Origin: Azolla caroliniana
Lineage: Eukaryota > Plantae > Polypodiophyta
Length of the DNA: 64,000 bases
Direction: 5' to 3'
NCBI GenBank assembly: GCA_043228905.1
Contig: JBHGNT010000003.1
Span: forward strand, 18,910,001 to 18,974,000
Of this stretch, positions 9,051 through 31,714 are shown one piece after another (within the stretch, counting starts at the first letter, position 1; each line of letters starts with the position of its first letter). The translations under genes and the position numbers were made by a program. Below the pieces are notes generated by a model, which saw nothing but the letters and a program-made list of their open reading frames with translations, was not told the origin of the DNA and did no database searches.

Positions 9051-9072
<22 letters not shown>

Positions 9073-9078
<6 letters not shown>

Positions 9079-9477: not shown

Positions 9478-9569
9478 TAAAGGGAAAAAAAGCAATATGA
9501 AATAGGTAATATGTTGCATTTCAATAAATAAATAAAACAAATTCGATAAATAAATAAAAAAATTTAGAA

Positions 9570-10410: not shown

Positions 10411-11297
10411 ATATACAAAATTTCCCCTAGTTTTCTATGTAGTTAGACCTCCATTTTTTTGTAGTTTTCAACATGTTTTTTTGCTAAGAAATGCTCATTT
10501 TATAGGAATTATTCAATCTTTCCATGTAACTACAAACTCCACACATAATTTAAAAATGCAAATAAAAAACCAAATATGTGGATTGCCAATGGTTCCCTCT
10601 TCCATGGTAATGCATCTTGGTTCGAAATAAAGTTACAACAGGTTGTTTCTGAAATAAAGTTCTTAACATGACAACAAGTTGAGAACAATGTTCTACATTT
10701 TGAGACAAATCAATAGCAGTGTGGATTGCATTTAATGCTAAGAGACACATTCTATATATAAATAAACATAAATTACGCATTGTAAAATTTGTTCAATGGG
10801 GTACCATTTTCATAATTTGTAAAATCGGGGTTAATACAATTAAGCTTACATGGATTTCCATTCCTTATCTCCAAATTGGATGAAAGAACATGACAGATGG
10901 AATATGAAACTACTAACTTTCTTGTCATGAAAATAATTAGTTGAGAATTTTGGTATGTTTTAAGAAACCGTGTATGCATGTGTCATACCATTGTAAAATT
11001 GTGCTGAAATGAGCCATTTTTTAACATCTCCCCTGAAGTAAAAAAGAGAACACGATATATTACTTGTTTCAAATGTCCTGGTGTTAGTGGAGCGGGGAAG
11101 AAGAAGAAGCAAATTTGTTTTTGTTGTTGTGCCATCTATCAGCAACAGAATTGGACACAAAGACAAGCGTTAAAAAGCTCTCGATTAGAGCTTCGTAAGA
11201 GATATAACAAGTTAAATTTGGTGGTTTGTACGAGAAGCAGTGATAGAAATAAGGAATCTTGTGTTGTCGGCATCCACATAATCAATCCACATTGCGG

Positions 11298-11592
11298 CGT
11301 CGTGAAGATTTTCGGCAACGGTGTGAAAATTGTGTGCAACGAACAAAATCGAGAATGTGCAATGTGCATGTGTGAAAGGGGTGAAGGCCACACACATATG
11401 CTAGCATGTTGTAAATAGGAGTGAAATGAGAATCGTAAAAGGAAAGCTAGATGTAAAGTTAAACATGTGCACGTGTGATGTGCGCTCAATTGTAAATATA
11501 AAAATAAGACTAAAGACTAGTAACATTTAAGTGCATACATAAGGATGGAATCAAGGCTTGAACCTTGCACCTCCAAGATAGGAGACCAATCG
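11298..11592 (+). mobile_element. LTR fragment (U3 start) of the TGTCGTGAAG family
   Basis: CGTCGTGAAGATTTTCGGCAACGGTGTGAAAATTG is the reverse complement of the LTR end at 28990-29025; 11500-11590 matches 28325-28410 inverted. Confidence 0.7.
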
Positions 11593-12518
11593 TTTTTTGA
11601 TAAACGATTGGTGCATGTAATGCAATGGTCCCCGGTAGTGGATTATCATGCTTTGTTAAAACAAGAATGCCCTATTTGCATAATAGTGGATTGTAAGCAC
11701 ACTTTTTTATGGCCACTTTCATTAGAGTTGATGAGTCAAATGGGTAAAGTGTTGATATCTCCACATGCAAATGTTACAAATAAGTGCAAATTTTGTGTGT
11801 TATGGGATACAAGTTGTAAGAGGCCAGGATGGGTGCGTATGAACACACCTGGTATGAAAAGACTTTCTTTTAAATTGAAGTAGGAGACATTTGCAGGTCA
11901 TTGTTTTGGATGTGGTGAATGGGGTCACTTTATGGTGGAAGGCCATCGTCATTGTCCTTCAACTATAGAGGTTCCTAATGAAGGGAATGGTAAGGAAGGA
12001 GTTGGGATAGATGTTGGTGTGTCAGATATTATGGTTGTTATGGATGAAGAAACATCATCTAGAGCAGGTTATAAAGAGGTCTCACTTCAAGCTTTGGGCC
12101 CTAAGGATAAGGGAACTCAATCTATGGATATGGAAAAACAAAGTTGAGTGGTTATAGAGATTTAAGGGGAAAAAATTGTTGGATAGAGCTAATAGTGATG
12201 TTGTTGTTGACAAAGATTGGCATCAGGTTAAGGGCAAGTCGAAGGGGAAATCAATGAATATGCAACGTAATAGTTTAACCACTACTCGTGAGACTACTTG
12301 GCAAGGTAATTCAAAATGTTCATTGGCAACGACAATTTAGGGATAAGGGATTACCCCTTCATGTTCAATTTGATTTAGTGGGACGGGTTGTAAATTCATT
12401 GAATTCTCGAGGTTTTCGTTAAGCGGGAGGACCTAAACAAAAGATTTTGATAGACAACCCCAAGGATGTGGTGCATGAAAATCCATATGCATCATTGGAA
12501 CATGCTTTGACTAGTTTT
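11593..12518 (+). pseudogene. LINE ORF1 remnant (DUF4283-like region plus zinc knuckle)
   Basis: FFDKRLVHVMQWSPVVD...; past a stop, CFGCGEWGHF (CCH knuckle); acidic/basic tail ending ...HENPYASLE. Confidence 0.65.
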
Positions 12519-12609
12519 TGTTAGGAATAGTACTGAAACAGAGATAAATTAGTACTAAGAGATGCTGATTAGTACTAAGAAGAAAAGAGGGTGCAGAACA
12601 GTCGAGAAA

Positions 12610-12687
<78 letters not shown>

Positions 12688-12978
12688 TGATCATAACAAT
12701 ATATTATGTGAAAGAATATACAAGAATAGCTAGGAGGCTTAAGACTGGTGTTGAACCGATTTTGTTCGAAATAATGCCTTGTGCCTCCTTTTATAGTGTT
12801 CTCAAGAGTACTCCTGAAGTTTCTAGAATGTTCTAGAGAAATCTGGAATATACATCAATTTTCTATAGTAAAACTTAAATGAAAATAATGTCTTTAATAT
12901 TACAATACATAGCCTAATGGTAAAGCCTCGACCCATGTAACATAAGGTCATGGGTTCAAGTCTTGCCATATCATGACA
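12519..12978 (-). repeat. 3' LTR of chromovirus
   Basis: TGTTAGG...TCATGACA; the first ~280 bp match 29295-29520; TATA (CTATAAAAGG on -) at ~12790. Confidence 0.9.
12910..12966 (+). promoter_or_regulatory. tRNA-like Pol III A/B-box module in chromovirus LTR U3
   Basis: A box TAGCCTAATGG 12910-12920 and B box GGTTCAAGTC 12953-12962 at tRNA spacing. Confidence 0.6.
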
Positions 12979-15900
12979 CTTTCCCCTTTTTAAAACGACG
13001 AGTGGCACGAGTCGTTTTGGATTGAGAACCCGGTTTTTCTGCATTTTGACAATGGAAGTCTTCAAGAAGAGCACAAGCATTGGTCACATTCTCTATCGGT
13101 TCCCAAGTACGCTCGTTGGGACTATATCCTAGCCAATTGACTAAATAGTAGAGCTTGTTGCGGGCAATCTTGGAATCGAGGCTGGCAGCAACCTTGTACT
13201 CAGGTCCATCTTCAAGTTCGATCGGGGGTGCAGATTGTTTAATACAACCTGGGATGGTGCTATCCTGATAGGGTTTGAGGAGAGAACTATGAAACACCGA
13301 TGTATCCGAAGTTGCAGAGGTAGAGCGAGATGAAAAGCGACATCATTAATTTTTCTGATAATACGGAAAGAACCTAATTGCCGATAATCTAACTTCTCGC
13401 ATGGGCGAGTAGTCTTGATGTGTCGTCGTAGTAGCCATACCCGATTGCCAATGTTAAAACTGGATGCAAGCCGATGACGATCTGCGTAAACCTTGTGTGT
13501 TTGTTGAGCGTGCTTTAGATGAATAGATAAATCCACTTGTATCTTGCGTAACCGCTCCAAACGATCCTCTACGCAAGGATTAGTGGGTAACTCTGGAGTT
13601 TCAAATACACACCACCAGGGGTGACAACCCGTATAAGCATAAAATGGTGTAACCTTTGTCGATGAGTGGACAGAGTTATTATATGCAAATTCGGCGAAGT
13701 GGAGAATATCCGCCCAGTCATCTTGATGATAGCTTAGGAAACACCGAAGATACTGCTCCAACGTTTGATTTGTTCATTCTGCTTGGCTGTTTATTTGCAG
13801 GTGGTAGCCAGAGGAGAGGTTACAAGTGACCTTAAGCATTTTAAAGAGGTGCTTCCAGAACTTCAAGACGAACTAGGGTCCACGATCGTTGATTATACCA
13901 TCGGGAAGGCCATGATGCCAACATACTTCACGCATGACAGTTTCGACGGTTTCCTCACTGGAGATTTCCTTAGTACATGGCAGGAAATGGGTCATCTTCG
14001 TATATCGATCTACTATTATTAAGATCGCATCGAATCCCTTAGAGACCGGAAGATCTTTGATGAAATATAGAGCAATGGATTGGCACGACTTGCTTGGAAT
14101 TGGTAATGGTTCTAATAAACCATATGGATGATGCCTTGACGTTTTTGCTCTGAAACATGTATCACAAGTCCGAACAAAATCTTCGACAAATTGTCGCATA
14201 TGGGGCCACCAGAATGATCATTGTACTAAATCTAATGTTTTGGTACTACCAAAATGCCCAGCTCTATATGTGTCATGATAGTTTTGGACTACTCGAAGGC
14301 GACAAGAACCATTAGGAACATACAACAGTTTCTTAACGAATAGTAATCCATCATGACATTCGAATTGTCGATAATTTGTACCTGGTTGTTGCGACTGTGA
14401 ACAAGATGCTCGAGAGGGATCAATTTGTGCTAGAATGGCTTGGGCAAAGCATTTGTCTTCAAGTCCTCACATATGGTATCGATAACGTGGGAATCTAATG
14501 GTATACCGAAGACCCGCGTTGCTTGCAGTCGTGTCGGTCCCAGGATTACTTGCTTTTGGTTATCGAAAGTTGGCTCGCCCGGACGCGGTGCTATATACGT
14601 GCGCCATGATAATGTGTTTGCCTTCCCTTGTTGCTTTCCCGGACGATATGTAATTTTGAAGTCGAAACAATTGAGGAATTGGGCCCACCGAGCTTGACGT
14701 CGATTTAACACACGAGCATTCTGAAAGTAGGCAAGGTTTTTGTGATCACTGAATACGATGACTTGATGAGAAGATCCCTCTAGATAATGCCTCCATTGCG
14801 TAAAAGAGTCCACTATTGCTAATAGCTCCTTATCATGAAGATTCCTTTCGAGGAAATGACATAGCCCAGAAATTCTACCAAGTTGCACTTGAAACTACAT
14901 TTTTCCAACTTTGCATAAAGACCATGTTCTTGAAGTCATTTTAGTACTAACAGTACATGGGAATAATGCTCTTCTTGGGTCTTCGAATAAACCAGTAGAT
15001 CATCCAAATAGATGATGAAACAAACATCCAAGAGATCTTGGAATATATCATTTGCCATGTGCTCGAAGACTGCTGGCGCATTAGTGAGGCCGAATGGCAT
15101 GACCGTATACTCGAAGTGCCCATATCTGGTGTGAAACATGATCTTCCATTCATCTCCTGGTCGGATCCGTGCGAGGTTATATGCTCCTCGTAAGTCGATG
15201 TTTGTGAAGAACCTTGCACCATTGATCCGTTCTAAAAGACTTGAGATAAGGGGAAGTGTGTACCTATTCTTGATGGTGACCTTTTTCAAGCCACGGTAAT
15301 CTACGACGAGTTGAAGTGATCCATCCTTTTTCTTGACGAAGAAAATGGGTGTGCCAGCTGGAGATTTTGAATGTTGAATGAAACCATTTGCCAAATTCTC
15401 CTCTATATAGGCTCGAAGGACTTCTAGCTCGGTTGGTGACAAATTGTAGATCGGTCCCCATGGTGGCTCTTTTCCCAGTTGTAAATCGATGGGGCAATCA
15501 TCCGATCGATGGTGAGGAAGCATATTAGCTCGTACTTTATCGAACACATCAGCATAATGAGGATACTTCTCTGGAAGTTGAACAGTGGACTCCTCTTTAT
15601 TGATACTGGAGGGGTTTACTGATATTGCGAAGAGAAACATTTCTTCCTTGTGTCCTTCCTCACGCAACTGATGTAGCGAAATGGTTGCAATATTATGAGT
15701 AGATCCTCGAGTTTGTTGACACCGTATATATGTTGTTCTCCAATCTATGGTTGGGTTATGTAATTAGAACCATGGTAATCCCAAAACAATGGGATGTTCT
15801 GGGATACTAATTATATTAAATGATACTACACACGCTAAGTTATCTAGGACAATATTAACAGGTTCTAACTCTTCTATAATATTCCTAGAAGCAATGGGAC

Positions 15901-17071
15901 GACCATCAATGACTACTATAGAGGCTGGACATGGGAGTTTCTTTAGGGATATCTGATGAGCTTGGGCAAAATTCCTATCCATGAAGCAAGAGTTGGCTCT
16001 GGAATCTAAGAGTGCTAAGACATGTACTGGAGGAGTACTTTTAGTACTAACCATTACTTGAGCTAAGAACACATTGCTGACTTGCGTAGAGGAAATGGAA
16101 CCACTAATGGGTTGCACAAATCTAGGGCTGTCCAACCAAACGGCTCCTATTCTGGCTAGACTTAATCGGATAACTCTTCTTCTAGTTGACTAAGGATTTC
16201 AAATTTGTTTGAAAGGCTTGGGCTATTAGAACTATCACACACACCTAGGGAAATAGACTCAGGTTTAGTACTATTAGTATTTGCGATTATTTGATTTACT
16301 TGCCTTTTTGGCCAATGGGGACAGTTCATTGCAATATGCCCTGGTCCACCACAATAAACACATAATCGATTTGCCCTGCGTCATTGCTTTTCTTCTTTCG
16401 ATTTCCATTGGAGTCGGAGTATTTGTTGGAGACGTATTGAATGACCTCCTTGGGAAAGGCTTTGCTATGATCGAAGCATAGGTGGGCTCCGATCTTGTCC
16501 TTGGCATTTGGAACTGACATTCTGAACGTTGTTTGAAGAGGTAGTTATCGCATCGCATCGCACCGCACGACTGATTGCTTCTGTCAATGACTTTGGCTCC
16601 TCGGGGAAAGTTAAGAGTAAATCTTTAACATCATTACGTAGGCCAAAATGAAATTGCTCCATTAATGCCTGGCCATCCTAGGTAATATCGGTGGCAAGAA
16701 GACGGAAATTTGCAGCATAAGCTGAGGCCGGCCGCTCACCTTGGTGCAATCTCCGGATTTCGTTGATTGCTGTTCTAACACTGTCGATATCTCAAAAATA
16801 GGCTTTAAGCTCAGTAATAAACTCTTTGAAATTATTTAACAAGGGGGAATTTTTTTCTAGCAGGGGGGCGAACCATGCCAAAGTCGTGCCACTAAGTAGA
16901 GTGCCTACTAGTCCCACTCGTGATGCATCGGTGGGATATCGAGAAGGATGCATTTGAATGACTAATCGTTCCTGATTAACGAATCCATCGAATTTGATGG
17001 GAAGGCCGATCTTGGGTTCTTTATGAATCCCTTGCATCGCTACTATGGTTGCTTCGAGTTGTTGTACACGT
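12971..17071 (-). pseudogene. Chromovirus gag-pol remnant with frameshifts and stops
   Basis: gag (LLSGTTLAWFAPLLE), protease (ALLDSRANSCF), RT (PIFFVKKKDGSL, YLDD), RNase H ([13 protein letters not shown]), integrase (LIIVDRYTKMTHF), chromodomain (YLVNWLGYSPNERTWEP). Confidence 0.92.
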
Positions 17072-17676
17072 TGTCGTGAAAAATCCATCACTAAATGCGG
17101 ATCATGAGGCGGAACCGCTGGGGTTCCGAACCAGAAGGATTTGAAGTTTGCACTAGTTTTAGCGAGAAAGGATTTAAGATATATTGAGAGAGAGAGATTG
17201 AGATTAAGATTCCAATTTTGAAACAGATTGAGAAAGATTAAAATGGAGAGAGAGATTAAGATTGAACTCTTGACTTTAGACTTTCGATTTGAAGAGTAGG
17301 ATATATCATCAATTGGATAACGAATTTTCTTACTTTTAATTTCTTGATTAATATATATCTCCCCTTTGATCTTTTTCAACCACTCTTTTATAGACACTGT
17401 CGTGAAAATACGACGAGGACATGTGAACTTGAGGCAGGACCCCGGGGCCTTAGACCAGAGGACATCACATTCGTGCTTTTATATTTTTAACAATTAACGA
17501 AAATAAGAAATTTAATCATTTTCATTAACAAAGGAAAAGAAATTACAATATGTCCCAAGATTGGGATTCAGAAGTTTTAGGTTTACTAAGATTAATAGAA
17601 AAGAAAAATTAGGGGTTTTGAGAGATATGGCTTCCGTAGGGAAAATTAGGGTTTTTGGCTTCCGTAAGGAAATTAG

Positions 17677-20600
17677 TGTTAAGAAAACGTGAAGAAGGCA
17701 CTCGGGCTCTTCTTATGTGCGCGGCGGATCGTGGTGTGCTAGATCGTTTAGTGCTCAAACACAGAAGGAGAAAGGAAAAGGGGACTTACCTCTGTAGTAG
17801 CAAAATGGTTTTCTTCTATTACATGTAGAGCTCAACTTGCTCTCGTCAGTCTTCTGGTCTCTCACTGTCTCTCAGAGTTCTCTACTCACTATTCTCTGTT
17901 TTTTCTTACTGCTTACTTCCTATTCACTCTCACTTACTTTTACCTAAGTCATAAGTTATTACACATGCAGCTAATTAGCTGTCAGTCGCTAAATAGCTGT
18001 CAGTAGCTAATTAGCTGTCAGTAGCTAATTAGCTGTTTCTCCTTTATGTTCACAAGTAGCTAAATAACTACTATAGCTTATTTCCCAATAAGCATCGCAT
18101 ACCATGTTGAGCTTGCTTCTCAACACTCCCCCTCAAGCTCAACTTATCCTTTCTTGGGGTTATCTACAACTTCTTTTTCATGATGCTTTTCAACCATCAT
18201 ATCAATGTCTACAACTCCCATCATGTTCCGAAACTGTGTATGCTTTTCCACACTCAATCCCTTTGTGAGAATATCAACAACCTGCTGATTTGTATTCACA
18301 TACACCAGATCAACTTCTCCTTCAATCACTTTTTCTCTAACAAAGTGATAATGCACTTCAATGTGCTTTGTTCTTGCATGGAACACAGGGTTCTTTGCAA
18401 GTTGAATGCTGCTGATGTTGTCACACCAGATTGTGACAGTACCGTCTATATACTCTCCCAAATCAGCAAGCAATCTTCTAATCCATACCTCTTCACAAGT
18501 GGCTATGGCAGCTCCTCTGTACTCAGCTTCAGTACTAGACAATGCAACAGTAGCCTGTTTCTTGCTACTCCATGAAATACCTGCACTTCCCAATGTAAAG
18601 ATATATCCACTTGTGGATCTCCTGTCTGTTTGGCTTCCAGCCCAATCAACATCTGTATATCCTTCCAGATTTATGTCCAAATCAGCCCTGTAAAACAATC
18701 CATAGTTCTGAGTAGCTTTTACATACCTCAGAATTCTTCTAATGCAGTCCAAATGTGGCTTTGTTGGCTGTTGCATAAACTGGCTGACTAATCCAACAAC
18801 ATAGCTCAAATCAGGTCTTGTTATAGTCAAATAAATAAGGCTGCCCACCATAGACCTGTACATGTTTACATCTTCTATCTTGGCTCCCAAATCAGCCCTC
18901 AACTTGCAGTTTTTATCAAGTGGTACAGCAATAGGTTTGCATCCAAGCATACCATACTTTTTCAACATAGTTGTTGCATACTGTTTTTGCAACATACATA
19001 TACCACTTTCAGATCTGATGATTTCAATACCAAGAAAATATCTCAGATCTCCCAAATCTTTCATATGAAACTGCATTTCCAGATTTTTTTTCAACTTTCT
19101 TATTTCATCCACGGAATCTCCTCCAATAATCAAATCATCTACATAAATCAGAATAATAACAATGCAATCATTTTCACTTTTTACATACAAAGAAGGATCA
19201 GCTTTTGACATTTTGAAACCAAGATTTTTCAGAGAATCTGAAAGTTCTCTGTGCCATGCTCTTGGTGCCTGTTTCAGTCCATAGAGAGCTTTTTTCAACT
19301 TACATACATAATCAGGTTGTTTCTTATCTTCAAAACCTGGTGGTTGACTCATATACACTTCTTCTTCCAAGTTACCATGTAAAAAAGCATTTTTTACATC
19401 CATGTGATGCAAAATCCATTTTTTGGCTGCTCCTACAGCAAGTAGTGTTCTCAAGGTTGCCATCTTTGCAACCGGTGCAAAAGTCTCATCATAATCAATC
19501 CCTTGCATCTGAGCATATCCTTTTGCAACCAATCTTGCTTCATGTCTACTTACATTCCCATTGGAGTCATGCTTTGTCTTGTAGACCCATTTGCAGCCTA
19601 CCACATTTTTCTCTTTTGGTAACTTCACTAAATCCCACGTTTTGTTCTCAGCCAATGCATCAATCTCTTCTTGCATTGCATCCATCCATTTCTTCTCAGA
19701 TTTTGCTTCTTCAAAGCTGTTTGGGTCAGGGATCTGTACCACCTTAGACATATATGCATAGTGCATAGCCATATATGTATCATACCCAAATCTTTCCACA
19801 GTCTTTTTCTCTCTATCTGATCTTCTCAGTTTCTGATTTGCATTCTTTATTGCCTTTTCCATACCAGGGATTTTCATTTCCTGTATTCCAAGGAAATCAT
19901 CGAAAGACATATCTGAATCTTCATCTTCCATGTTTTTTGATAGGTCATCCGGGATTTCATACTCTGGCATTTTCTGTTTTCCTTTTTTGTCATCAGATTT
20001 TTTCTGTCCAGTTTTTCCACTCCATGAATTTGAATCAGATTTACCATCTGAGCTTTTTGATGGTCCAGAACATTCTGTTGATGTTGGACTTTGATGTCCA
20101 ACCTTGTCTCCATCTCTGTGACAGTCTTCTACATTTTCTGATCTGTCTTTGTCTTCATTTTGACAGTCTTCATCAGTCTCTAGATTCTGTTTTGGGCTGT
20201 ACCAACTAGCCAACTCATCAAATATCACATCTCGACTTGTCACAATCTTTTTAGTCACAGGGTTATAACATTTGTACCCTTTTTGTTCTTCTGAATATCC
20301 AACAAAGATACATTTTTCTGCTTTTGGATCCAACTTACTTCTTACTTCTGCAGGCACATGTACATATGCAAGGCATCCAAACACTTTCAAGTGTTGTAAG
20401 CTAGGCTTCCTGCCATAAAAACACTCTTCAGGAGTTGCCTCATGTACTCCTGATGTAATACATCTATTTAAAATGTAATTTGCTGTATTTACAGCTTCTG
20501 CCCAATAGTATAATGGCATGTTCTTCTCAGTCATCATTGCCCTTGCTATGTTCACCAAAGTTCTGTTTTTCCTCTCAGCAACTCCATTTTGCTGTGGAGT

Positions 20601-23096
20601 ATATCGGCATGTGAACTGTCTTCTTATTCCCTGATTACACAAAAAATCAGAAAATTCATTGGAGAAATACTCTCCTCCTCCATCAGATCTCAAACATTTT
20701 ATCCTAGTACCAGCCTGCTTTTCTACCATGCATTTAAACTTACGAAAATAGTCAAATACTTCACTTTTCTCCTTCATGAAGTACACCCATGTCTTCCGTG
20801 AACAATCATCAATAAATGTAACATAAAATTTGCATCCACCAATAGATGCATTCTTTGTTGGTCCCCATACATCTGTATGTACCAAATCCAACAGATTTTT
20901 GCTTACATGTCTCTCATGAGGGAATGGCAACCTGTTTTGCTTACCATATTGACATGCTTCACATACTTTTCCCATTTCACACTTTTTCAAGTTTGGCAGT
21001 CCAGCCACTGCATCTTTTCTCAACATATTCTTTAATGTTTGCATACTTATATGGCCAATCCTTTTATGCCACATTTCCACATCTAAGATTACACTCGTTC
21101 CATTTGCAAACATGGCTGAAATCTGTTTGGGCATTTCTACATCCAAGATAAACATTCTTCCTTGTCTCTTCCCTTTTGCAATGAGCTTCCCATTCTTTTC
21201 TATATAGCATCCACTTGGCTTAAACTTTACTTGCATACCTTGCTCTACTATCTGTCCAACAGAAATCAGATTCTTAGCAAGATTTGGAACATGCATCACA
21301 TCCAACATATACTTGGTTTTTCCTCTTTCTTCCCACAATGGGATATCTCCAACATGTTTTATTTGGTGAGTTGTGTCATCACCTGTTTGTACATAACCAG
21401 GAACCTCTGGTTCTCTTAAACTCTCAAACCAATTTGCATGTCCAGTCATATGGTTAGATGCCCCCGAGTCTACATACCACGTAAACTCTTCATTACATTT
21501 CTGTGAGCTTTCAGCCACTGCTGCTATCTCATGTTGCACTACAAAAACACCTTCCTTTTCACAATCTTCACTAGTAGAGGCATAGTTACTCTGTTGTCCT
21601 TTTCCTCTTTTCTCATCATTTTGTTTCTTGTAACATTCAGCCTGTGTATGGCCTGGTTTACCACAATACCAGCAGCCATCATCATTTACATAAGTTTGCT
21701 TACCTCTACCTCGGTTGCTCCCCCTGCCTCTGTTGTTGTTTCCTCCTCTATGAGCTTGTTGTCCTCTTCCTTGAAAGCCATTATTATTGGTTCTTCCTGA
21801 GCCAAATCTTCCATGGCCTCTTCCTCGGCCTCTTCCGGCATTATTATAGAGGGCTTGCCCCTCGTTCTCTGAGTTTCCTTTATTTGCATCATCCATCTGA
21901 TTCCTTTCCTCTACCACAAGCATTGAGACCAGATCTGAAAAACTTGGGATACTATCCCTTGTGAGCATAGAAGTTTTAAAACTCTTGTATTGAGGTCCTA
22001 AGCCTCTTAAGCATATTTCCACTTTGTCATCATCTTCTATCTTCACATTGATAGAAGCAAGTGATTCACATATACTCTTGATTTTTAGGGCATACTCATT
22101 TATTGACATCTTACCTTTTTCTAAGGTATTTAGCTCAGTCTTCAACTGTAGCTTTCTAGCTTTTGTGTTTACTGCAAACAGTTTTACCAAACTGTCCCAA
22201 GCTTCTTTTGGGAGCATAGCATCCTGTATGTGCCCAAGCATCGAATCTGAGATGCTAAGTGAGAGCCAATGCATTACCTTCCTTGCCCCTTGATTCCAAT
22301 CTTTGAATGCTTTAATCTGTGCTGCTGTGGCATTTTCTTCTGGGATCTCCGGAGCCTCTTCTAGGTCTCCTTCAATGTAATCCCAGTATCCTTTCCCCAT
22401 TAGGAAATTTGTCATTCTAAATTTCCACGCCGGGAAATTGTTTTTATCTAGTTTCTTTGTAACTATTTGGCCCGCATTCTCTGCAGCCATTATCTCTTCC
22501 AAACTAGGTTTTCTGTTACAATTACTTCAACAAGTAACTTTTTGATTCAGATAAGCAAACAGAGAAATACCTTTCTCAGATCTATGCACTTTTGTACTCT
22601 TCTTTATGAGCAACTCTGCTCTGATACCATGTTAAGAAAACGTGAAGAAGGCACTCGGGCTCTTCTTATGTGCGCGGCGGATCGTGGGGTGCTAGATCGT
22701 TTAGTGCTCAAACACAGAAGGAGAAAGGAAAAGGGGACTTACCTCTGTAGTAGCAAAATGGTTTTCTTCTATTACATGTAGAGCTCAACTTGCTCTCGTC
22801 AGTCTTCTGGTCTCTCACTCTCTCTCAGAGTTCTCTACTCACTATTCTCTGTTTTTTCTTACTGCTTACTTCCTATTCACTCTCACTTACTTTTACCTAA
22901 GTCATAAGTTATTACACATGCAGCTAATTAGCTGCCAGTAGCTAATTAGCTGTCAGTCGCTAAATAGCTGTCAGTAGCTAATTAGCTGTCAGTAGCTAAT
23001 TAGCTGTTTCTCCTTTATGTTCACAAGTAGCTAAATAACTACTATAGCTTATTTCCCAATAAGCATCGCATACCATGTTGAGCTTGCTTCTCAACA
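17677..23096 (-). mobile_element. Intact Ty1/Copia LTR retrotransposon (Copia-1)
   Basis: LTRs 17677-18125 and 22630-23096, near identical; TSD ATTAG; PBS TGGTATCAGAGC (tRNA-iMet) at 22618-22629; PPT GAGGGGGAG; uninterrupted gag-pol. Confidence 0.97.
18144..22502 (-). CDS. Copia gag-pol polyprotein, 1452 aa
   Basis: Zn knuckle CWYCGKPGHTQAEC, protease VDSGASNHM, integrase (HTDVWGP, RSDGGGEY), RT (YVDD), RNase H (TEAEY, CDNISSI). Confidence 0.97.
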   Translation of the reverse strand: MEEIMAAENAGQIVTKKLDKNNFPAWKFRMTNFLMGKGYWDYIEGDLEEAPEIPEENATAAQIKAFKDWNQGARKVMHWLSLSISDSMLGHIQDAMLPKEAWDSLVKLFAVNTKARKLQLKTELNTLEKGKMSINEYALKIKSICESLASINVKIEDDDKVEICLRGLGPQYKSFKTSMLTRDSIPSFSDLVSMLVVEERNQMDDANKGNSENEGQALYNNAGRGRGRGHGRFGSGRTNNNGFQGRGQQAHRGGNNNRGRGSNRGRGKQTYVNDDGCWYCGKPGHTQAECYKKQNDEKRGKGQQSNYASTSEDCEKEGVFVVQHEIAAVAESSQKCNEEFTWYVDSGASNHMTGHANWFESLREPEVPGYVQTGDDTTHQIKHVGDIPLWEERGKTKYMLDVMHVPNLAKNLISVGQIVEQGMQVKFKPSGCYIEKNGKLIAKGKRQGRMFILDVEMPKQISAMFANGTSVILDVEMWHKRIGHISMQTLKNMLRKDAVAGLPNLKKCEMGKVCEACQYGKQNRLPFPHERHVSKNLLDLVHTDVWGPTKNASIGGCKFYVTFIDDCSRKTWVYFMKEKSEVFDYFRKFKCMVEKQAGTRIKCLRSDGGGEYFSNEFSDFLCNQGIRRQFTCRYTPQQNGVAERKNRTLVNIARAMMTEKNMPLYYWAEAVNTANYILNRCITSGVHEATPEECFYGRKPSLQHLKVFGCLAYVHVPAEVRSKLDPKAEKCIFVGYSEEQKGYKCYNPVTKKIVTSRDVIFDELASWYSPKQNLETDEDCQNEDKDRSENVEDCHRDGDKVGHQSPTSTECSGPSKSSDGKSDSNSWSGKTGQKKSDDKKGKQKMPEYEIPDDLSKNMEDEDSDMSFDDFLGIQEMKIPGMEKAIKNANQKLRRSDREKKTVERFGYDTYMAMHYAYMSKVVQIPDPNSFEEAKSEKKWMDAMQEEIDALAENKTWDLVKLPKEKNVVGCKWVYKTKHDSNGNVSRHEARLVAKGYAQMQGIDYDETFAPVAKMATLRTLLAVGAAKKWILHHMDVKNAFLHGNLEEEVYMSQPPGFEDKKQPDYVCKLKKALYGLKQAPRAWHRELSDSLKNLGFKMSKADPSLYVKSENDCIVIILIYVDDLIIGGDSVDEIRKLKKNLEMQFHMKDLGDLRYFLGIEIIRSESGICMLQKQYATTMLKKYGMLGCKPIAVPLDKNCKLRADLGAKIEDVNMYRSMVGSLIYLTITRPDLSYVVGLVSQFMQQPTKPHLDCIRRILRYVKATQNYGLFYRADLDINLEGYTDVDWAGSQTDRRSTSGYIFTLGSAGISWSSKKQATVALSSTEAEYRGAAIATCEEVWIRRLLADLGEYIDGTVTIWCDNISSIQLAKNPVFHARTKHIEVHYHFVREKVIEGEVDLVYVNTNQQVVDILTKGLSVEKHTQFRNMMGVVDIDMMVEKHHEKEVVDNPKKG

Positions 23097-23656
23097 ATTA
23101 GGGTTTATGAGAGATCGGCTTCCGTATGGAAAATTAGGGTTTATGGCTTCCGTAAGGAAATTTAGGGTTTTTGGCTTCCGTAAGGAAATTTAGAGTTTAT
23201 GGATTCTGTAAGGAAATTAGGGTTTATGAGAGTTATGATTTCGATAAGATGAAGGAGCTAAGAAGGAAAAGAAAATTAATGGAGAGAGAGTATGAGTATA
23301 GGAAAAAAATGGAATATATATGGAGTTCCCCGTTGATCATATGCATGTCCACTTTTTGTTGCATGGCCTCTACTTTTAGTTGCATGTGACCGTCCACATG
23401 ACCTTTTACTTTAGTTTTCTTCACTTCACTTTAATTAGCCACATGATCCTATCATCCGTTCGGTTTGCGTCCAGCCTCGTCCGGTCGCCAATTGTCGTCG
23501 CCTCGCCAGCTCCGCCATCAGTTCTGGTTTGCTTACCGGTCGGTTTTCGGTTTTGCTTACCGGCTGATTTCGGTTTTGCTTACCGGCTGGTTTCCAGTTT
23601 TGCTTACTGGCCGGTTTCCGGTTTTGCTTCAGTCTTTGCATTTCCATGACCAATTG

Positions 23657-25633
23657 TCATGGCTCTCTTTGCTCCCCTCTAGAGCATAATGCTTCACTCC
23701 TTATGCATGTGCCACCTTCATCTCGACCATCTCCTTGGTCATTTAACTTTCTTTTATCATCCTTTCTTGTTTCATGCATGCCTTTCAAAGGCCTTATCAA
23801 AGTACTATTGTTGAGTACTCTTAGTGGTCCATTCTTTAACAACATGCTCTCTTGTAGGTCCTTAAGTGACCACATTGTATGCTTCCCATTTTGTCCACTT
23901 TTGTGGTATACTCTTGTGTTGGAGTGGACCATGACTTCTACGCTAGTATTATCCTTGTTAGATTTTGTGATCACATATTTCGGATCCGCTTGGCCCGCTT
24001 GGCCCACGTCCTTGCTTTTTGAGGTTTGTTTGGTCTCGTTGTCGCACACATTAGCTTTTGTCCTTGCTTCCTCGCTGCCATCGTCCTTCTCTTGGGTCTT
24101 ACATTGGTTAATGCCCAAGTCTCTCAAACGAGTGTGGAGGAATTTGGTAGTTTGGCATTGCCTTTGTCGTGCTACCCTTAGCCGCATCCACCTTATGGTT
24201 GTCCTCATTGGTTTTGACCTTTGTTCCTTCGCCGCCGCCTTCCATCTCTTGGGTCTTACATCGGTTAATGCCCAAGTCTCAAGAACTTTTGTGGGGAAAG
24301 TCTCTTCATGATCATCGTCTACCCTCTTCGGCTTGACGTCTCCTTCTTCTTCGCATGTGTTAGTTTTGGCCTTCACTTCCTCGCCGCCACCTTCCGTCTC
24401 TTGGGTCTCACGTTTGCTTTCCGACGCATCTGCCCAAGTCTCTAGAACAAGTGTAGAGAAAGTCTCGACACGGCCATCGGTCATTGACTCGTCCATAGCC
24501 ATCTCTGACTCAATGTCATTTTTCGTGGCTATCTCTTTAGACTCATAGGCCTCGTACCCATTGATCCTCTTGATCAAGCAAGCCTCGATTATTCTTCTCT
24601 CTTCTTTGTATGTGTTAGTTTTGGCCTTCACTTCCTCGCCGCCATCTTCCGTCTCTTGGGTCTCACGTTGCCTTTTCAACACAACTACCCAAGTCTATGG
24701 AATAAGTGTGGAGAAAGTCTCGACACGGCCATCCGCCATTGACTCGTCCTCAGCCACCTTTGACTCGATGTCAATTTTCATGGCTATCTCCGCAATCAAA
24801 TTGGCCTCACACTTTTTATCTCCCTTGATCATGCAAGCTTTGCTCATGCTTGCACCTTCATCACTTGATGTTTCAGACACGATGCGTGTTCTGAGACATT
24901 TGTCCTTGCTTGAAGTTACATTCGCCACCCTCAATTCATTGGTTTCTTTCTTCGTCATTCTTTCTGTGCAAGATGAGAAGGTCTCTTGTTCCACACCTTC
25001 TTCCATGGTTATATCGTGGTACCGAACTTGGGCCTTTGTATCAACCGTAACATTAATCCGCATTTGTTGGGAGGCCTCTTCTTCCTCGCTCATCATTTGC
25101 TTCAGTTTTTGCTCCTTTTGAAGCTTCTCTTCAGCCTCAACTTGCGCCTTTAAGTTCTCGAATGCCTCTTCCATCAAGACTTCTATGTCGAGTATTGTTG
25201 AACCTTCCCTCTTCGAGTTTTCTTCTTTAGGTGGTAGTTTGTAGTTGCTTCCCGTCCTCCTTTCACCATCCGTCATGGGTTGTGTTGTTGCCGATCAGAA
25301 TCTTGTCTTCCTCTTATCGTGAAGTCGACATACTCTTTCCACTTTCGTCCAATCTTCTGTGAGGCCATTTGCACCATCATCATCCTCAAGTCGGATTCCA
25401 ATGGCATTCCTTTCCTTCCGGTCTATCGATTTCACAAACATTAGGATTTTTTCCACGCCCACCAATCTTTGATCCCGCTTCGAGAGTTGTGCAAAGCGAC
25501 ACTCAAACTCAACGAAAGCATGCATGGCACTTTGGTGGATCTTTAATGATGATACCCATTGGTCGAACTCGTATAGTTTGCATCTCTTCGGTTCTTTGTA
25601 ACTATATGCCTCCATGAGATATCCTCCTGCCAC
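23657..25633 (-). pseudogene. Gag-like plus low-complexity ORF remnants of element B
   Basis: Collinear broken ORFs (FECRFAQLSKRDQ..LMFVKSID..LTEDWTKVERVC, then repeated ETQETEDGGEEVKAKTN blocks) starting just downstream of the PBS. Confidence 0.55.
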
Positions 25634-26549
25634 CTCGTTTCACGTCGAGTTCACCAAAGATGTCGCCAAAATACGACGAGGACACGCGAACTTGAGGCAG
25701 GACCCCGGGGCCTTCGACTAGAGGACATCACATTCGTGCTTTTATATTTTTTAACAATTAACGGAAATAAGAAATTTAATAATTTTCATTAACAAAGTAA
25801 AAGAAATTACAATATGTCCCAAGATTGGGATTACAAAAGTTTTATCTTAAGGAGATTACTAGAATAATAGATTAGAAGATACTAAGATATGGATTCAATA
25901 GAATTTTAGGGTTTTTGGCTTTGATAAGAGATTATGGTTTATGAGTTCAATAGCTTCCGTAGGGAAATTTAGGGTTTATGAGTTCAATAGCTTCCGTAGG
26001 GAAATTTAGGGTTTATGGCTTCCATAAGAAAATTAGGGTTTTTGAGTGTTATGGCTTCCGTAGGGAAGATTAGGGTTTTTGAGTGTTATGGCTTCCGTAG
26101 GGCATTTAGGGTTTATGAGAGTTATGGGTTCCCTAAGATAAGGGAGCTGAGAAGGAAAAGAAAAAAAATAATGGAGAGAGAATCTGAGTATAGGAAAAAA
26201 ATGGAATATATATGGAGTTCCCCGTTGATCATATGCATGTCCACTTTTTGTTGCATGGCCTCTACTTTTAGTTGCATCCATTTTTAGTTGCATGACTTTT
26301 TCTTTTAGTTGCATGATCTTTCCACCTTTTCTTTGCATGCCTTCCAAATTTTTGCATGCGTTCACATGGCCTTTACTTTACTTTAATTAACCACATGATC
26401 TTGTTATCCGTTCATTTTGCGTCCAGCCTCGTCCGGTCGCCGATTGCCGCCGCCTCACCGGCTACGCCGCCGGTTCTGGTTTCCTTACCGGCCGGTTTCC
26501 GGTTTTGCTTACAGGCTGATTTCGGTTTTGCTTACCGACCGGTTTCCGG

Positions 26550-27629
26550 TGTCGTGAAGTACGAAAGCTTCACATTAAAAGTCTACAATAAGATAAATAC
26601 GTAACTAAAATAAAATAAAAGTTGATAATATTTTATACATAAAGATAATATTAACAACACACTATGATAATATTATACATTATATGTAGAGGTAAATAAA
26701 TAAATAAATATGTTACATTACATGGACGAGAGAGGACTTGAGCCAATAAACCCCACCTTATGACACTCAAACCTTACCATTTAGCCTATACTAATAATTT
26801 ACAAGAAATCATATGCATTGTTTTATTTCAAGTAATATTTTATAGTCTAAACCATGTAATATACTACAAGCACACCATATAGCATATCACATGGGCAAAA
26901 GAGGACTTGAACCAACAAACTCAACCTTATGGCATTCAAATCTTACCATTTAACCTATACTTGTGATATGAATCAAACATATGTGTTGTAATATTGTATG
27001 GTTTAAACCAGGAAATGTATTACATGTGCACCATATAGCACACATGCAAGAGCCTCTCTGCATGTACGCCATGTGGCCCACATGTAGAACCATCTCTTCC
27101 CTATAAAAGGAGAAGGGAGTATGGTCACAAGGGGGATCAAAGGAATCAATCAATATCAAAAGAACTATATTATATATATATCAAATAGGGTTATGTTGTA
27201 AGTGATATCACAATAGAGAAAGAAGGAAAGGAAGTTCAACATAAAGGTGGAGCTCTAACTTGGCGATCATGGTGGTCAACTCTCAACAAGAGAGAGGCGG
27301 TTCGAGCCTTATCTTCATCAAAATATTGAAGTGAAGATTGTTGTGGCCTACTATAAAGAAAGAGAAGAGCAATTATCTTGTGAGACCAAGTTCGAAGGAT
27401 CAACGACGCTTACAATCACTTTTGTAACTCTTTCATCAAATAATTATAAATCTCTTTTATTCCTTCAAATATCGTTCAATATCCTTTCTTGTCATATCTT
27501 GTTGATCTCTATTTACTCTATCTCTACTCTTTCGTCTCTTCCGTCCATAATCTCAGTGATTCCTTCCTCACTTTCACGATACCTTTTGTCTACGCAACGC
27601 AACGCTTCTAGGCAAGCCACGCCACGACA
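26550..27629 (+). mobile_element. Solo LTR 'Y' (1080 bp) inserted in element B 5' LTR
   Basis: TGTCGTG...CACGACA termini, perfect CCGG duplication, TATA CTATAAAAGG at ~27102; it interrupts the GGTTTTGCTTACC repeat tract. Confidence 0.85.
26732..26958 (-). promoter_or_regulatory. Two tRNA-like A/B-box modules in solo LTR Y
   Basis: On -: TAGG(C/T)TAAATGGTAAG...CATAAGG...GG(C/T)TCAAGTCC, at 26733-26788 and 26902-26957. Confidence 0.55.
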
Positions 27630-28301
27630 CCGGTTTTGCTTACCAACTGGTTTCGGTTTTTGCTTACCGGCCGGTTCTGGTTTTGCTAACCGGCAAGTTC
27701 CGATTTTGCTTACCAGTCGGGTTCCAGTAGGTTTTGCTTACCGACCGGTTTCCAATTTTGCTTACCAACCGGTTTCCAATTTTGCTTATCGGCCGGTTTC
27801 TGGTTTTGCCTACCGATCAATTTCTGGTTTTGCTTATGGGCCGGTTTTTTATTTTTGGGAACTTAGCCACCATCATCCATCAAGACAAAGTGGCCAAAGT
27901 GTTCTTAGCACAAATGAAAAATGAGGGATCTCAAGGTGCTTATATAGCCAAAGCCTTAAGTTTCCTATCTATGTGGGATAAATCATAGTTCTATTTTCCA
28001 TATCTTCTCAAACATCCATCTTTCTATAACATGCCATTAAGCTAATATAAAGTACTTATTTTATTATTATTATTTTTTACATAGTGTGAGAAGATTCACA
28101 CCACAACGCCCCCATACATATGATGCATGTGAGGGTACAAGACATGCATACAATGCATGGAATGCATATGATGCATGTTTGCCATTTGGCGCTCATGCAT
28201 TACATGTGATGCATGATAACCATGTCACTCAATTAAGCTCTAATATGAGAATTTACATGTAAAACTATAATGATAGAAAAAAAAATTCTAAGGAAATGAC
28301 T

Positions 28302-28360
28302 TAGCTTAGTGGTAAGTCTACTGTCTCCTATCTTGGAGGTGCAAGGTTCAAACCTTGCTT
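28302..28360 (+). promoter_or_regulatory. tRNA-like A/B-box module in solo LTR X
   Basis: TAGCTTAGTGG 28302-28312; CTCC-TATCTT-GGAG stem; T-arm GCAAGG-TTCAAA-CCTTGC. Confidence 0.6.
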
Positions 28361-29294
28361 GCGTCCCTTTGTATACAAACTTTTACTAGGTTTTTAGTCT
28401 AGATATTTTGTTTGTTTCACACCGAAATCGTCACAATCAACCTATCCGATCGATCCGTCTATCCAGTCCATCCGGTCCGCATCTGACCTCGTGATCCGGT
28501 CTATCTGATCCGGTTCTAGTGATAGTGTCGGTCCCGGTTTTGCGTCGTCCACCATTTCGGTTCCGGCTCCGTCGTCGTCTGTTTGGTTTCGGTTTCAGTT
28601 TCGGTTTCGGTTCCGTTGTCGGTTTTGTGGTCGTCCGATCACCCAAAACCATTACAAGTAGTTAAGCCATAGTTTAGCCCAAGAACATTTTCTGCTCCAC
28701 TTATAGACAAAAAGTAATAAGTTTTGGCTCTGCTTATATAATGTGGGATCCTGTTTTGTCCTATCTATGTGGGATATCTCACAGTTTTGTTTTTCTCTTC
28801 TTCTTCTCAAACTTCCTCAAACTTCACACTCACATAACTTGACACTAAGTTGTCCATTTCACATGTAGTAAAATGCATTCGGAAGCTCTTGAAGACATAC
28901 ATCCTTTCATACCAAGATATAAATAATATCTTCATTATTATTGTTTCATATTGTGTGTGAAGAACCACACTCGATTTTGTACATTCCATGCAATTTTCAC
29001 ACCGTTGCCGAAAATCTTCACGACAGCGTACCGCTAGTTCCCCATGTTGTTGTTGCGTCTGCTGCTTTTCTAAGGATATTTGTTGAAGATCCCCCAACAA
29101 TCGTTGATTTTCTTATTCAAAAGCAAGGAACTTCTCTTTCAAACATTGTAGCTCTGAGAAAACGGATTGATATTCTTGAGCGCTAACAGTGGCCATAGGA
29201 TGAGAGGAAAGAGGAATAAGATATTAGTATGAAGGGAGAGAAACGTAAGAAGATAAAAGGAAGAGGAGGAAAGAGATGCAAAATCGGTTCAAAC

Positions 29295-29520
29295 TATCAG
29301 GAATAGTACTGAAACAGAGATAAATTAGTACTAAGAGATGCATATTAGTACTAAGAAGAAAAGAGGGTGCAAAATAGTCGAGAAAAGGACAGAGAGAGAG
29401 AATGATGATAATAATGATATATTATGTGAAAGAATGTACAAGAATAGCGAGGAGGCTTAAGACTGGTGTTGAACCATTTTAGTTCGAAATAATGCCTTGT
29501 GCCTCCTTTTATAGTGTTCT
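29295..29520 (-). repeat. Partial 5' LTR of chromovirus
   Basis: Direct repeat of 12519-12802 with a shorter GA tract; ends at TTTTATAGTGTTCT where the Copia LTR begins. Confidence 0.85.
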
Positions 29521-29829
29521 TGTTGAGAATCAAGCTCAACTTGGTCTAGTGTGTGAACTCACCATGAGAGTGAATAGACCCTCCAACAGTCAAGAGTCAC
29601 CATTATGTCACCACTTTGTATTCTAGCATTTAGTATGAGTCATAGAATCATATTCTATGACACATAACTTATGAGCTTTCACATTCCCCATGCTCCATGA
29701 GTCTTGTAATTAATGAAGAGAGAGGGTGACTATATAAAGCACCCTCCTCCCACCTTGTATGTTGTTGAGTCTTTCTCCTTTGTTAATATACTTTACCTTG
29801 CGTATTCTCTGTGTCTTACTCCTTGTCTC

Positions 29830-29892
<63 letters not shown>

Positions 29893-31122
29893 CACACACA
29901 CAACTCATATCTATTCCGCTGCATAGAATCCATCTCTTGATTCTTTACATGGTATCAGAGCGACTTGGTAGCTCGATCTAGCCCATCCGTGTGCGGTGTG
30001 TCCTACGTCGACAACCAAGAACCAGCTCATCGTTATCGTAGCCTCGCTACATAGCTCGCATTCGAAGAGAGAAGAAGCAGAAGAAGAAGAATCGACATAA
30101 TGAATACTCAAATGGGGAGCGCTCTCTCTACCGAGAAGTTGGATTGAAACAACTTTGCATCTTGGGAGTACAAGATGCACCAATACCTTGTCGGACAAGG
30201 CTATTGGAGCTACATCAAAGGTGCGCACGAAGACCAACCCGTCGAAACGGCTCCCGGATACGCGACATGGGAGCAAGCCGCAAGTCACGTGATGTATTGC
30301 TTGGCGACATGTGTTCAGGATCACATGCTTGGCTACATTCGCGAAGCCAAGACGCCGAAGGAGGCATGGGAATATCTACGAAAGATTTTCGCGGCGAACA
30401 CAACCGCAAGAAGGCTTCAACTCCGCCAAGAGTTGAACAACACTCAACAAAGGGACATGTCCATCACGACATACACCTTGAAGATCAAGGAGCTTTGCGA
30501 CTCACTCGGCTCGATAAGTGTAAATATCGATGATGATAAGATGGTGCAAATCTGCCTCGGTGGCATTGCACCACGGTTCGGCGCGATGCGAACCGCTGTT
30601 CTAGCAAGGGAGAAATCTCCCTCCTTCTTCAAGCTCCAATCAATGCTATTGGTCGAAGAAAACCACGTGCGCACAAGGAGCAATGAGTCGGAAGGCCACA
30701 TGCTCTACACGCACTCGAACAGAGGAAGAGGACGCGGACGAGCGAGAGGCCGATTCGGCCAAGGACAAGGAGGACGAGGTTCGACCTACGACAACAACTT
30801 CCAATTTCGGCCGCAAAACGAAAGCCAACGAGGAACCTTCGCAAGAAGGGGGAGCTTCCACGCCGGCCCGAGCCATCAAAACGCAACCAAATGCGGATAT
30901 TGCGGAAAGCTCAGCCACCACGAAGAAGAGTGTCGAAAGAAGATGCACGAATCGGCTTCCACAAGACGAGAACTCACGAATTACACGCACAATTCCGACT
31001 ACGAAGAGTATAGCGGAATGTACAGGCACAACTCTGACTACGAAGATTGTGGCGGAATGTATGCACACAACTCCAACCGTGGTGGAATGTTCATGATGAA
31101 ACATAGAGCAAACTCTACATAA
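29521..31122 (+). mobile_element. 3'-truncated Copia (5' LTR 29521-29949, PBS, gag only)
   Basis: TGTTG...TTACA then TGGTATCAGAGC; gag with an early stop, ORF 30175-31122 (ARRLQLRQELNN, CGYCGKLSHHEEEC) similar to the Copia-1 gag; no pol. Confidence 0.85.
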
Positions 31123-31304
31123 GTGCACATCACATTTACACTTTATGAATTTTCATAGTGCACTTTTAACACCTTACATTTACCCTTCCTTTTTTACATT
31201 TGTTTCTTTTACAAATCGAAGTCCAAGTGCATGTGCAATGTTGCACATCCCCATTTTATCCATCCCACTTGGTTTTCTCACCATGGCCGAAAATCTTCAC
31301 GACA
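31123..31304 (-). mobile_element. LTR fragment of the TGTCGTGAAG family
   Basis: Ends GCCGAAAATCTTCACGACA like 29025; resembles 11298-11480 inverted. Confidence 0.65.
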
Positions 31305-31714
31305 ACGTAACCTATGTATGTGAACGTAATACACAATTGAGGTATTAACCTTGTATCCATATGACACGAATCACATATCAAATATATGTCAAATGAGGTA
31401 TTGACCTCATACACATATATAAACGTTTTATACAACCAATTAATTACCACTACAACATCATTGAATCAATAAAGAAAAAAAACATATTCACTATACATAA
31501 ATAGATTAGGAGAAGAAACAATAGAAAAAAAAAAGAGTTACCAAAGTTCCTTTGTTGATCATTATCTGGATCAAGGTCGAACGCACATTGATCAATCACC
31601 ATCCATCAAGAAGACAACAAAAACCAACAAAAGAAACATTAGAAACATAAGCTCTGATACCGATTGTTAGAGTTATGATCTAACGTAAGCATATGATAAG
31701 GATAAAAGATATAT

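What the first reader, a model, noticed from the sequence alone, without database searches (positions are those of the whole stretch)
11294..31308. TGTCGTG-ended LTRs sit at CpG-centred 4-bp target sites (NCGN)
Seen flanks: GCGG (11294-11297), ACGT/GCGT (17068-17071, 29026-29029), ACAC/ACGC (17394-17397, 28106-28109), CCGG/CCGG (26546-26549, 27630-27633) and ACGT (31305-31308). Both TSD mismatches are transitions at or next to the CG. The three Copia TSDs in the window are 5 bp and lack CG. Inference: an integrase with CpG (possibly methyl-CpG) preference, which would steer insertions into other young TEs and explain the self-nesting in AT-rich DNA.
Basis: partly seen in the sequence, partly recalled or inferred. 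Interest (0 to 1): 0.7.

Follow-up and report, generated by a model that had tools for sequence, protein, structure and literature searches.

The report
Fern retrotransposons that insert at CpG
These jumping-gene ends, in what is likely a fern genome, sit on CG-centred four-base sites far more often than chance, which matches the already published habit of the Phygy retrotransposon lineage, so the pattern is real but largely known, and nothing here shows that the CG must be methylated.

Summary
All eight flank 4-mers are as stated. The ends are LTRs of a Ty3/Gypsy retrotransposon without a chromodomain; relatives carry a PPT, a PBS and an intact RT-RH-integrase. A public-metagenome scan gave 83 distinct insertion flanks of the same family: 67 have a central CG (background 3.8%, P about 2e-79), 14 CA/TG, 2 other, 0 TA. 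The target is better written VCGB, with ACGT commonest (25 of 67). Empty-site contigs confirm a 4-bp duplication. Neumann et al. 2019 already report 4-bp NCGN TSDs and a tRNA-Trp PBS for Phygy (186 moss elements), Jedlicka et al. 2019 report Phygy nested in Tcn1 as here, and a 2026 paper lists Phygy in ferns. Phylogenetic membership could not be tested (no named Phygy sequence). Methyl-CpG sensing and steering into young or same-family elements are unsupported: the integrase has no reader domain, and 6 of 80 flanks are same-family. The scan earlier noted CpG-centred 4-bp TSDs in another (probably fungal) genome and Phygy-like nesting elsewhere in this one. New member of a known kind; interest 0.2.

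The parts
11294..11297 (+). One-sided target flank GCGG
   Evidence: not a PPT, so the LTR behind it is a 5' or solo LTR start (compare the PPT class)
11298..11590 (+). 5' fragment of a family LTR (first base T>C); no partner end found
   Evidence: 96% over 292 bp to L108; matches stop at 11590
12523..17067 (-). Host element: Tcn1-like chromovirus (gag, PR, RT, RH, IN-SH3, chromodomain; broken frames), left part
   Evidence: Pfam hits; LTR 12523-12802 matches 29299-29520. The label Tcn1-like is recalled from its make-up, not from a tree
17068..17071 (+). TSD copy ACGT of solo LTR A
   Evidence: empty-site contigs
17072..17393 (-). 3' part of solo LTR A (ends CACGACA on the minus strand)
   Evidence: uninterrupted homologues L021 and L006 cover both parts
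17394..17397 (+). TSD copy ACAC of element B (CG decayed to CA, inferred)
   Evidence: loose ends before 17398
17398..28105 (-). Element B: non-autonomous family member, about 4.2 kb without nested inserts; 5' LTR 25661-28105, 3' LTR 17398-about 23634 lacking its first ~470 bp and the PPT
   Evidence: LTR alignment; 92-95% LTR identity on two stretches
17677..23096 (-). Nested intact Copia, 5-bp TSD ATTAG, LTRs 99.6% identical
23657..25639 (-). gag-like ORF remnant of element B with an acidic low-complexity tail, interrupted by stops; no pol
   Evidence: 94% to P0002; weak Retrotrans_gag lead
25640..25656 (-). Primer-binding site 4 nt behind the 5' LTR; tRNA-Trp type (label recalled)
   Evidence: the same site, one letter apart, follows an LTR end in 12 matches in 11 of 124 loci
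26546..26549 (+). TSD copy CCGG of solo LTR C
26550..27629 (+). Element C: 1080-bp TGTCGTG...CACGACA insert, likely a solo LTR of a sister family
   Evidence: perfect CCGG TSD; repeated in all 4 runs laid; 0 BLAST hits in the 124 loci, so family membership rests on termini and TSD only
27630..27633 (+). TSD copy CCGG of solo LTR C
28106..28109 (+). TSD copy ACGC of element B
   Evidence: 15 uninterrupted A-type LTR copies have one 4-mer here, 0 of 15 with CG
28110..29025 (-). 5' part of solo LTR A (starts TGTCGTGAAGATTTTCGGC); with 17072-17393 it makes 1238 bp
29026..29029 (+). TSD copy GCGT of solo LTR A
29030..29520 (-). Host Tcn1-like element, right part (gag start and LTR)
31114..31304 (-). 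5' fragment of a family LTR beside a truncated Copia gag; no partner end found
31305..31308 (+). One-sided target flank ACGT

Best explanation
These are solo LTRs, LTR fragments and one non-autonomous copy of a Ty3/Gypsy retrotransposon family without a chromodomain, likely of the Phygy lineage, and its insertions duplicate a 4-bp target centred on CG (VCGB, mostly ACGT). Shown: LTR anatomy (PPT, PBS), an intact partner pol behind the same LTR start, 4-bp duplication, CG-centred flanks. Inferred: the partner integrase mobilises the non-autonomous copies in trans, cuts with a 4-bp stagger and selects the bendable, palindromic CG step by reading the DNA sequence and shape itself, whether or not the C is methylated. 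Inferred: later methylation and deamination turn some TSD copies into CA/TG. The local pile-up (Tcn1-like > A > B > C and Copia) follows from CpG-richer TE DNA offering more sites and from tolerance of insertions there, not from family-specific homing.
For: 83 distinct flanks: CG 67, CA 7, TG 7, AG 2, TA 0, against 3.2 CG and 5.0 TA expected from the same loci's flanks; P about 2e-79. CG lies only at register -3/-2 (67), with 0 at -4 and 0 at -2. Within CG sites T is avoided first (2 of 67) and A last (1 of 67), each against 37% expected; ACGT 25 of 67 against 5%. The same T/A avoidance is reported for 4-bp-TSD retroviruses (PMC4422553 section 6). At the other LTR end, loose flanks before 17398 are diverse (agreement 0.39 and 0.41) yet their majority ends in ACGT, in 37 (X1) and 29 (X5) contigs. 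32 of 126 matches follow a shared PPT. L076 carries RT-RH-IN with intact H2C2 and DDE and no chromodomain or aRH; its model matches PFV and Ty3 integrases. Phygy is defined with 4 bp (100%) NCGN TSDs and 81% tRNA-Trp PBS (PMC6317226 text and supplementary table). Phygy nested in Tcn1 was the commonest repeated nested pair in moss (PMC6911290). Ferns hold Phygy and Tcn1 (PMC13477047).
Against: No named Phygy sequence was available, so there is no tree; named homologues are Riccia (about 56-62%), Adiantum nelumboides and Chara. The scanned flanks are one-sided and 116 of the 124 loci come from one series of related metagenome assemblies. The test that CA/TG flanks are older copies was negative (median identity to the nearest sibling 0.913 against 0.907; P=0.68), so some CA/TG sites may be primary targets. 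Indifference to methylation is assumed, not shown.
Confidence: 0.8

Rival explanations
1. The integrase, or a host tether, prefers methylated CpG and so homes to silenced TE DNA without a chromodomain.
For: Flanks are CpG-richer (o/e 0.83) than two window genes (0.42, 0.43) and the whole window (0.63). At least 22 of 80 flanks are TEs. Both window TSD mismatches look like deamination of methylated CpG. Phygy domains were reported enriched at centromeres of the liverwort Apopellia (PMC12885004 passage).
Against: No reader domain: Pfam finds none in L076 or in 7 homologues, the tail after the GPY/SH3 part is short and mostly acidic (median 72 aa; 36 homologues), and the 44 listed fold matches (ranks 1-50) are all integrases. 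Decay shows methylation after insertion, not a need for it before. CpG-rich flanks follow from CG selection alone.
Confidence: 0.12
2. The integrase only wants a flexible pyrimidine-purine step, like PFV and MLV, and CG merely happens to be commonest.
For: 4-bp-TSD retroviruses favour central YR and avoid T first and A last (PMC4422553); 81 of 83 centres here are YR; CA/TG-flanked copies are not older.
Against: If all YR steps were equal, CG would make up 16% and TA 25% of centres; observed 67 of 83 and 0 of 83. The retroviral YR gain is only about 63% over background. At B's site 15 uninterrupted LTR copies carry ATGC, ATTC and similar (0 with CG), whereas the copy that was hit carries ACGC.
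Confidence: 0.05
3. The ends are terminal inverted repeats of a Ginger1-like DNA transposon (11298 paired with 29025 or 31304).
For: 11299-11353 and 28970-29024 form a 55-bp inverted repeat at 91%. Ginger1 has TGT ends and 4-bp CCGG/CCGT TSDs (PMC2836005).
Against: The same start follows a PPT in 32 matches, is followed by an LTR end and a PBS in 11 loci, and sits behind an RT-bearing pol. Empty sites pair 17072 with 29025, not 11298. The inverted repeat is two LTR starts in opposite orientation.
Confidence: 0.02
4. Chance or selection by eye.
Against: 67 of 83 in an independent set; 0 of 8 non-homologous chance matches of the same pattern are CG-centred.
Confidence: 0.01

Closest known systems
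Phygy clade of non-chromovirus Ty3/gypsy LTR retrotransposons (Neumann et al. 2019, PMC6317226; passages, section 9 and supplementary table MOESM5 read)
   Same: 4-bp TSD with NCGN preference, Trp-type PBS, no chromodomain, no aRH, non-seed-plant host, nesting in Tcn1 (PMC6911290 passage).
   Different: Defined from Physcomitrium patens; here the host is likely a fern. The window holds only solo LTRs and a gag-only non-autonomous copy. The motif is narrower than NCGN (VCGB, ACGT commonest). No tree with Phygy references was possible.
TatI (same table, 4 elements)
   Same: 4-bp TSD (100%), tRNA-Trp PBS (75%).
   Different: TatI carries an archaeal RNase H (100%); none was found here. No CG preference is listed for it.
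Ginger1 DNA transposons (Bao, Kapitonov, Jurka 2010, PMC2836005; passages read)
   Same: Gypsy-type integrase, TGT ends, 4-bp CG-centred TSD (CCGG 75%, CCGT/ACGG 24%).
   Different: DNA transposon with TIRs, no RT, PBS or PPT; the preferred site is CCGG, here ACGT.
PFV and MLV integrases (Serrao et al. 2015, PMC4422553; abstract and section 6 read)
   Same: 4-bp stagger, central YR step, T avoided first and A last; PFV is the closest solved integrase by sequence and fold.
   Different: Their YR preference is weak and not CG-specific; here CG is near-obligate and TA absent.

Membership tests
Phygy | Ty3/gypsy domain order RT-RH-INT | tested here: met
   L076 pol directly upstream of the PPT and the same LTR start; not present in the window itself
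Phygy | No chromodomain (non-chromovirus) | tested here: met
   No Chromo hit in L076 or 7 homologues; short tail
Phygy | No archaeal RNase H (separates it from Tat) | tested here: met
   No RVT_3 domain besides the retro RH in L076 (RT to stop) or in 7 homologues, one of which (P0073) spans the protease to the integrase zinc finger; one sub-threshold hit overlaps the normal RH
Phygy | 4-bp TSD | tested here: met
   3 paired window TSDs; empty-site contigs; 15 uninterrupted LTR copies
Phygy | NCGN target motif | tested here: met
   67 of 83 flanks
Phygy | PBS for tRNA-Trp | tested here: inconclusive
   A conserved TGG-led PBS follows the LTR end; its assignment to tRNA-Trp is recalled, and no call matched it to a tRNA (one search found nothing relevant)
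Phygy | Falls in the Phygy clade on RT/RH/INT trees | not testable with these tools
   REXdb sequences (MOESM3 fasta) too large to read; no named P. patens homologue returned
Phygy | Full length 7.7-10 kb with the polyprotein filling the interior | not tested
   No complete autonomous copy was held; B is about 4.2 kb and non-autonomous
TatI | Archaeal RNase H | tested here: not met
Ginger1 | TIR-bounded DNA transposon without RT | tested here: not met
   PPT, PBS and RT linked to the same end

The most novel reading that the evidence does not exclude
A chromodomain-less plant retrotransposon integrase reads methylated CpG directly at its cut site, using the host's silencing mark as its address and so homing to heterochromatin; the same habit would link Phygy, Ginger1 and CpG-targeting fungal Gypsy elements as one ancient integrase trait.
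Probability: 0.12. Interest if true: 0.65.

Novelty: new member of a known kind. Interest (0 to 1): 0.2.

Why it matters
Modest. It shows with counts that the NCGN habit, published for moss Phygy in one sentence and one table cell, also holds in a likely fern family, and sharpens it to VCGB with ACGT commonest. An intact integrase (L076) is at hand, so whether 5mC helps, hinders or is ignored is directly testable. A near-obligate CG-targeting integrase would be a useful contrast to PFV. If methylation were required, it would be a chromodomain-free route to heterochromatin targeting.

Tried and rejected
No whole genome is held, so no genome-wide paired-TSD logo and no control of what other families insert into. 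My first idea, that 11298 and 29025 are TIR partners and 17072 a chance motif in the Tcn1 gag frame, was rejected by empty-site contigs and uninterrupted LTR homologues. The first read-laying showed high copy number but no usable terminal flanks. The age test of CA/TG against CG flanks was negative (51 against 12 copies with 90 nt or more; P=0.68). A PBS pattern found 0 viral contigs. Rfam found no tRNA-like match at the PBS in 4 loci. Three cluster look-ups (16 proteins) and the 50%-representative search gave no named P. patens Phygy. The atlas search of the gag-like ORF gave only a weak Retrotrans_gag lead. Rows dropped before the 83-site count: 8 matches in contigs with no homology beyond the pattern (picked by eye; used as control; two share one flank), 32 PPT-preceded 3' LTR starts (31 by rule, L015 moved by hand), and 3 flagged as duplicates (L102, L115, L105). 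L105 was dropped wrongly: it is a separate CCGT site, which would give 68 of 84. Literature: 'NCGN + retrotransposon' returned 3 papers, of which only PMC6317226 is on topic. Searches (listings only) showed no paper on methyl-CpG-reading retrotransposon integrases. PMC9002660, PMC8282616, PMC13469084, PMC7466625 and PMC10886601 (passages) added nothing. Additional file 1 of PMC6317226 (per-element TSDs) was too large to read and may already show the VCGB refinement.
Full report
Observation. The eight flank 4-mers are at the stated places. They belong to five insertion events: three with both TSD copies (ACGT/GCGT, ACAC/ACGC, CCGG/CCGG) and two one-sided LTR fragments (GCGG at 11294, ACGT at 31305). 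Two ends deviate from the title motif: 11298 starts CGTCGTG and 28105 ends CACCACA. The five other TGTCGTG/CACGACA hits in the window have no CG-centred flank. The three Copia TSDs are 5 bp without CG. No whole genome is held.

Anatomy. A Tcn1-like chromovirus on the minus strand (Pfam hits) is split in gag by solo LTR A (29025 to 17072, 1238 bp). I first suspected that 11298 and 29025 were TIR partners, because they share a 55-bp inverted repeat. The gag codon phase also agrees on the two flanks. LTR A is split by element B (17398-28105). Fifteen uninterrupted A-type LTRs carry a single 4-mer at that point, none with CG, whereas the window's right copy is ACGC. B has two LTRs, a PBS 4 nt behind its 5' LTR, a gag-like remnant (94% to P0002) and no pol; its 3' LTR lacks the PPT and its first ~470 bp. 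B holds an intact Copia (LTRs 99.6% identical) and insert C (1080 bp, perfect CCGG TSD). The order is Tcn1-like, then A, then B, then C and Copia. C has no homologue among the fetched loci, so its family link rests on its ends and TSD.

Host. The plastid-type PDH E2 exon at 53122-54300 groups with Ceratopteris and Adiantum (support 93/88, long branch; 24 rows, no named moss among them). The host is therefore likely a fern; support is moderate.

Independent sites. Close identity to window sequences (L108 96% over 292 bp; L111 26 of 26) suggests the same or a near species. 116 loci come from one series of related assemblies. Eight matches without homology beyond the pattern served as control: 0 of 8 CG-centred. 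Thirty-two follow a shared polypurine tract and are 3' LTR starts. After three rows were dropped as duplicates (one wrongly; see Tried and rejected), 83 distinct flanks remain: CG 67, CA 7, TG 7, AG 2, TA 0. Background CG in the same flanks is 3.8% (P about 2e-79). Among the 16 non-CG centres, 14 are CA/TG against 14% expected (P about 2e-10). CG appears at register -3/-2 only. Among CG sites T is avoided first (2 of 67) and A last (1 of 67), each against 37%, and ACGT makes up 25 of 67 against 5%. The motif is the palindrome VCGB. At the opposite LTR end (17398), flanks in two runs are diverse (agreement 0.39, 0.41) but their majority ends in ACGT (37 and 29 contigs).

The enzyme. L076 holds a 979-aa RT-RH-IN frame ending just before the PPT and the same LTR start. 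H2C2 and DDE residues are conserved in a 57-row alignment. The tail behind the GPY/SH3 part is short (median 72 aa in 36 homologues), and Pfam finds no chromodomain, aRH or methyl-reader. The model (mean pLDDT 78.9) matches PFV and Ty3 integrases first, as does the sequence. Named homologues come from Riccia, Adiantum nelumboides and Chara. A conserved PBS follows an LTR end in 11 of 124 loci; I recall it as tRNA-Trp type, which no call confirmed.

Mechanism. Shown: LTR retrotransposon anatomy, 4-bp duplication, near-obligate central CG. Inferred: the integrase cuts with a 4-bp stagger and picks the bendable CG step by reading sequence and shape. Retroviruses with 4-bp TSDs also favour a central YR and avoid T first and A last (PMC4422553, abstract and section 6), but only weakly. 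A pure YR rule would give 16% CG and 25% TA, against 81% and 0% seen. Inferred: CA/TG centres are later deamination. The two window mismatches fit this, but CA/TG-flanked copies were not older than CG-flanked ones (P=0.68), so some may be primary targets. Methyl-CpG sensing has no direct support. Flanks are CpG-richer than genes (o/e 0.83 against 0.42-0.43), but CG selection alone predicts that. Self-nesting is not the rule: of 80 flanks of 100 nt or more, 6 are same-family, 14 Copia, 2 Tcn1 and 58 unassigned, using a small library and without a control.

What is known. Neumann et al. 2019 (PMC6317226; passages, section 9 and supplementary table MOESM5 read) state that Phygy elements have an insertion preference for NCGN and list 186 elements, 4 bp (100%), tRNA-Trp PBS 81%, no extra domain. 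Jedlicka et al. 2019 (PMC6911290; passages and section 6; author name recalled) found GC-rich centres in 4-bp TSDs and Phygy-in-Tcn1 as the commonest repeated nested pair in P. patens. Phygy is reported in a liverwort (PMC12885004 passages) and in ferns (PMC13477047 passage). Ginger1 DNA transposons have CCGG/CCGT TSDs (PMC2836005 passages) but no RT. Five of eight Phygy features tested as met, one inconclusive, one not tested, and the tree could not be built. A search for NCGN with retrotransposon found no other relevant paper; per-element TSDs in that paper's Additional file 1 could not be read.

Earlier notes of the scan (unchecked leads): CpG-centred 4-bp TSDs in another, probably fungal, genome and a Phygy-like nest elsewhere in this genome.

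Verdict. Real, statistically very strong, and essentially the published Phygy behaviour in a new host family, with a small refinement of the motif. New member of a known kind; interest 0.2. The methyl-CpG version has probability about 0.12 and would rate about 0.65.

Noticed in passing
L080 (match 2692-2710, minus) and L105 (match at 105, plus): An LTR start sits exactly 4 bp (ACGT; CCGT) from the LTR start of another family member on the opposite strand, as if the second element inserted into the first one's TSD; 2 of 84 sites.
   Followed up: partly
window 28050-28105: Element B's 5' LTR starts TGTGGTG at a point homologous to about 55 nt inside the A-type LTR of L111: a shortened or cryptic LTR end that was apparently still integrated with a 4-bp TSD.
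   Followed up: partly
L045/L046, L065, L037: Short non-autonomous members (about 2.2-2.4 kb between PBS and PPT, or per tandem unit) with a gag-like start and an acidic low-complexity ORF, like element B; L045/L046 show a 2360-bp LTR-internal tandem unit, possibly an assembly collapse.
   Followed up: partly
window 11590-12520: Degenerate coding-like sequence with a CxxC zinc-knuckle-like stretch that cuts off the LTR fragment at 11590; possibly a LINE ORF1 remnant (label by eye).
   Followed up: no
window 17677-23096: Intact, very young Copia (1460-aa frame, LTRs 99.6% identical) with low CpG (o/e 0.22), unlike the Copia at 31715-37783 (o/e 0.94).
   Followed up: partly
window 8839-10196 and 41749-41938: (GA)n-containing tandem repeats of about 50 bp and a long imperfect palindrome (9542-10196).
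   Followed up: no
window 5529-6990, 53119-54489, 58685-61051: Host genes: class 3 lipase, plastid-type PDH E2, PLS-class PPR with an E motif.
   Followed up: partly
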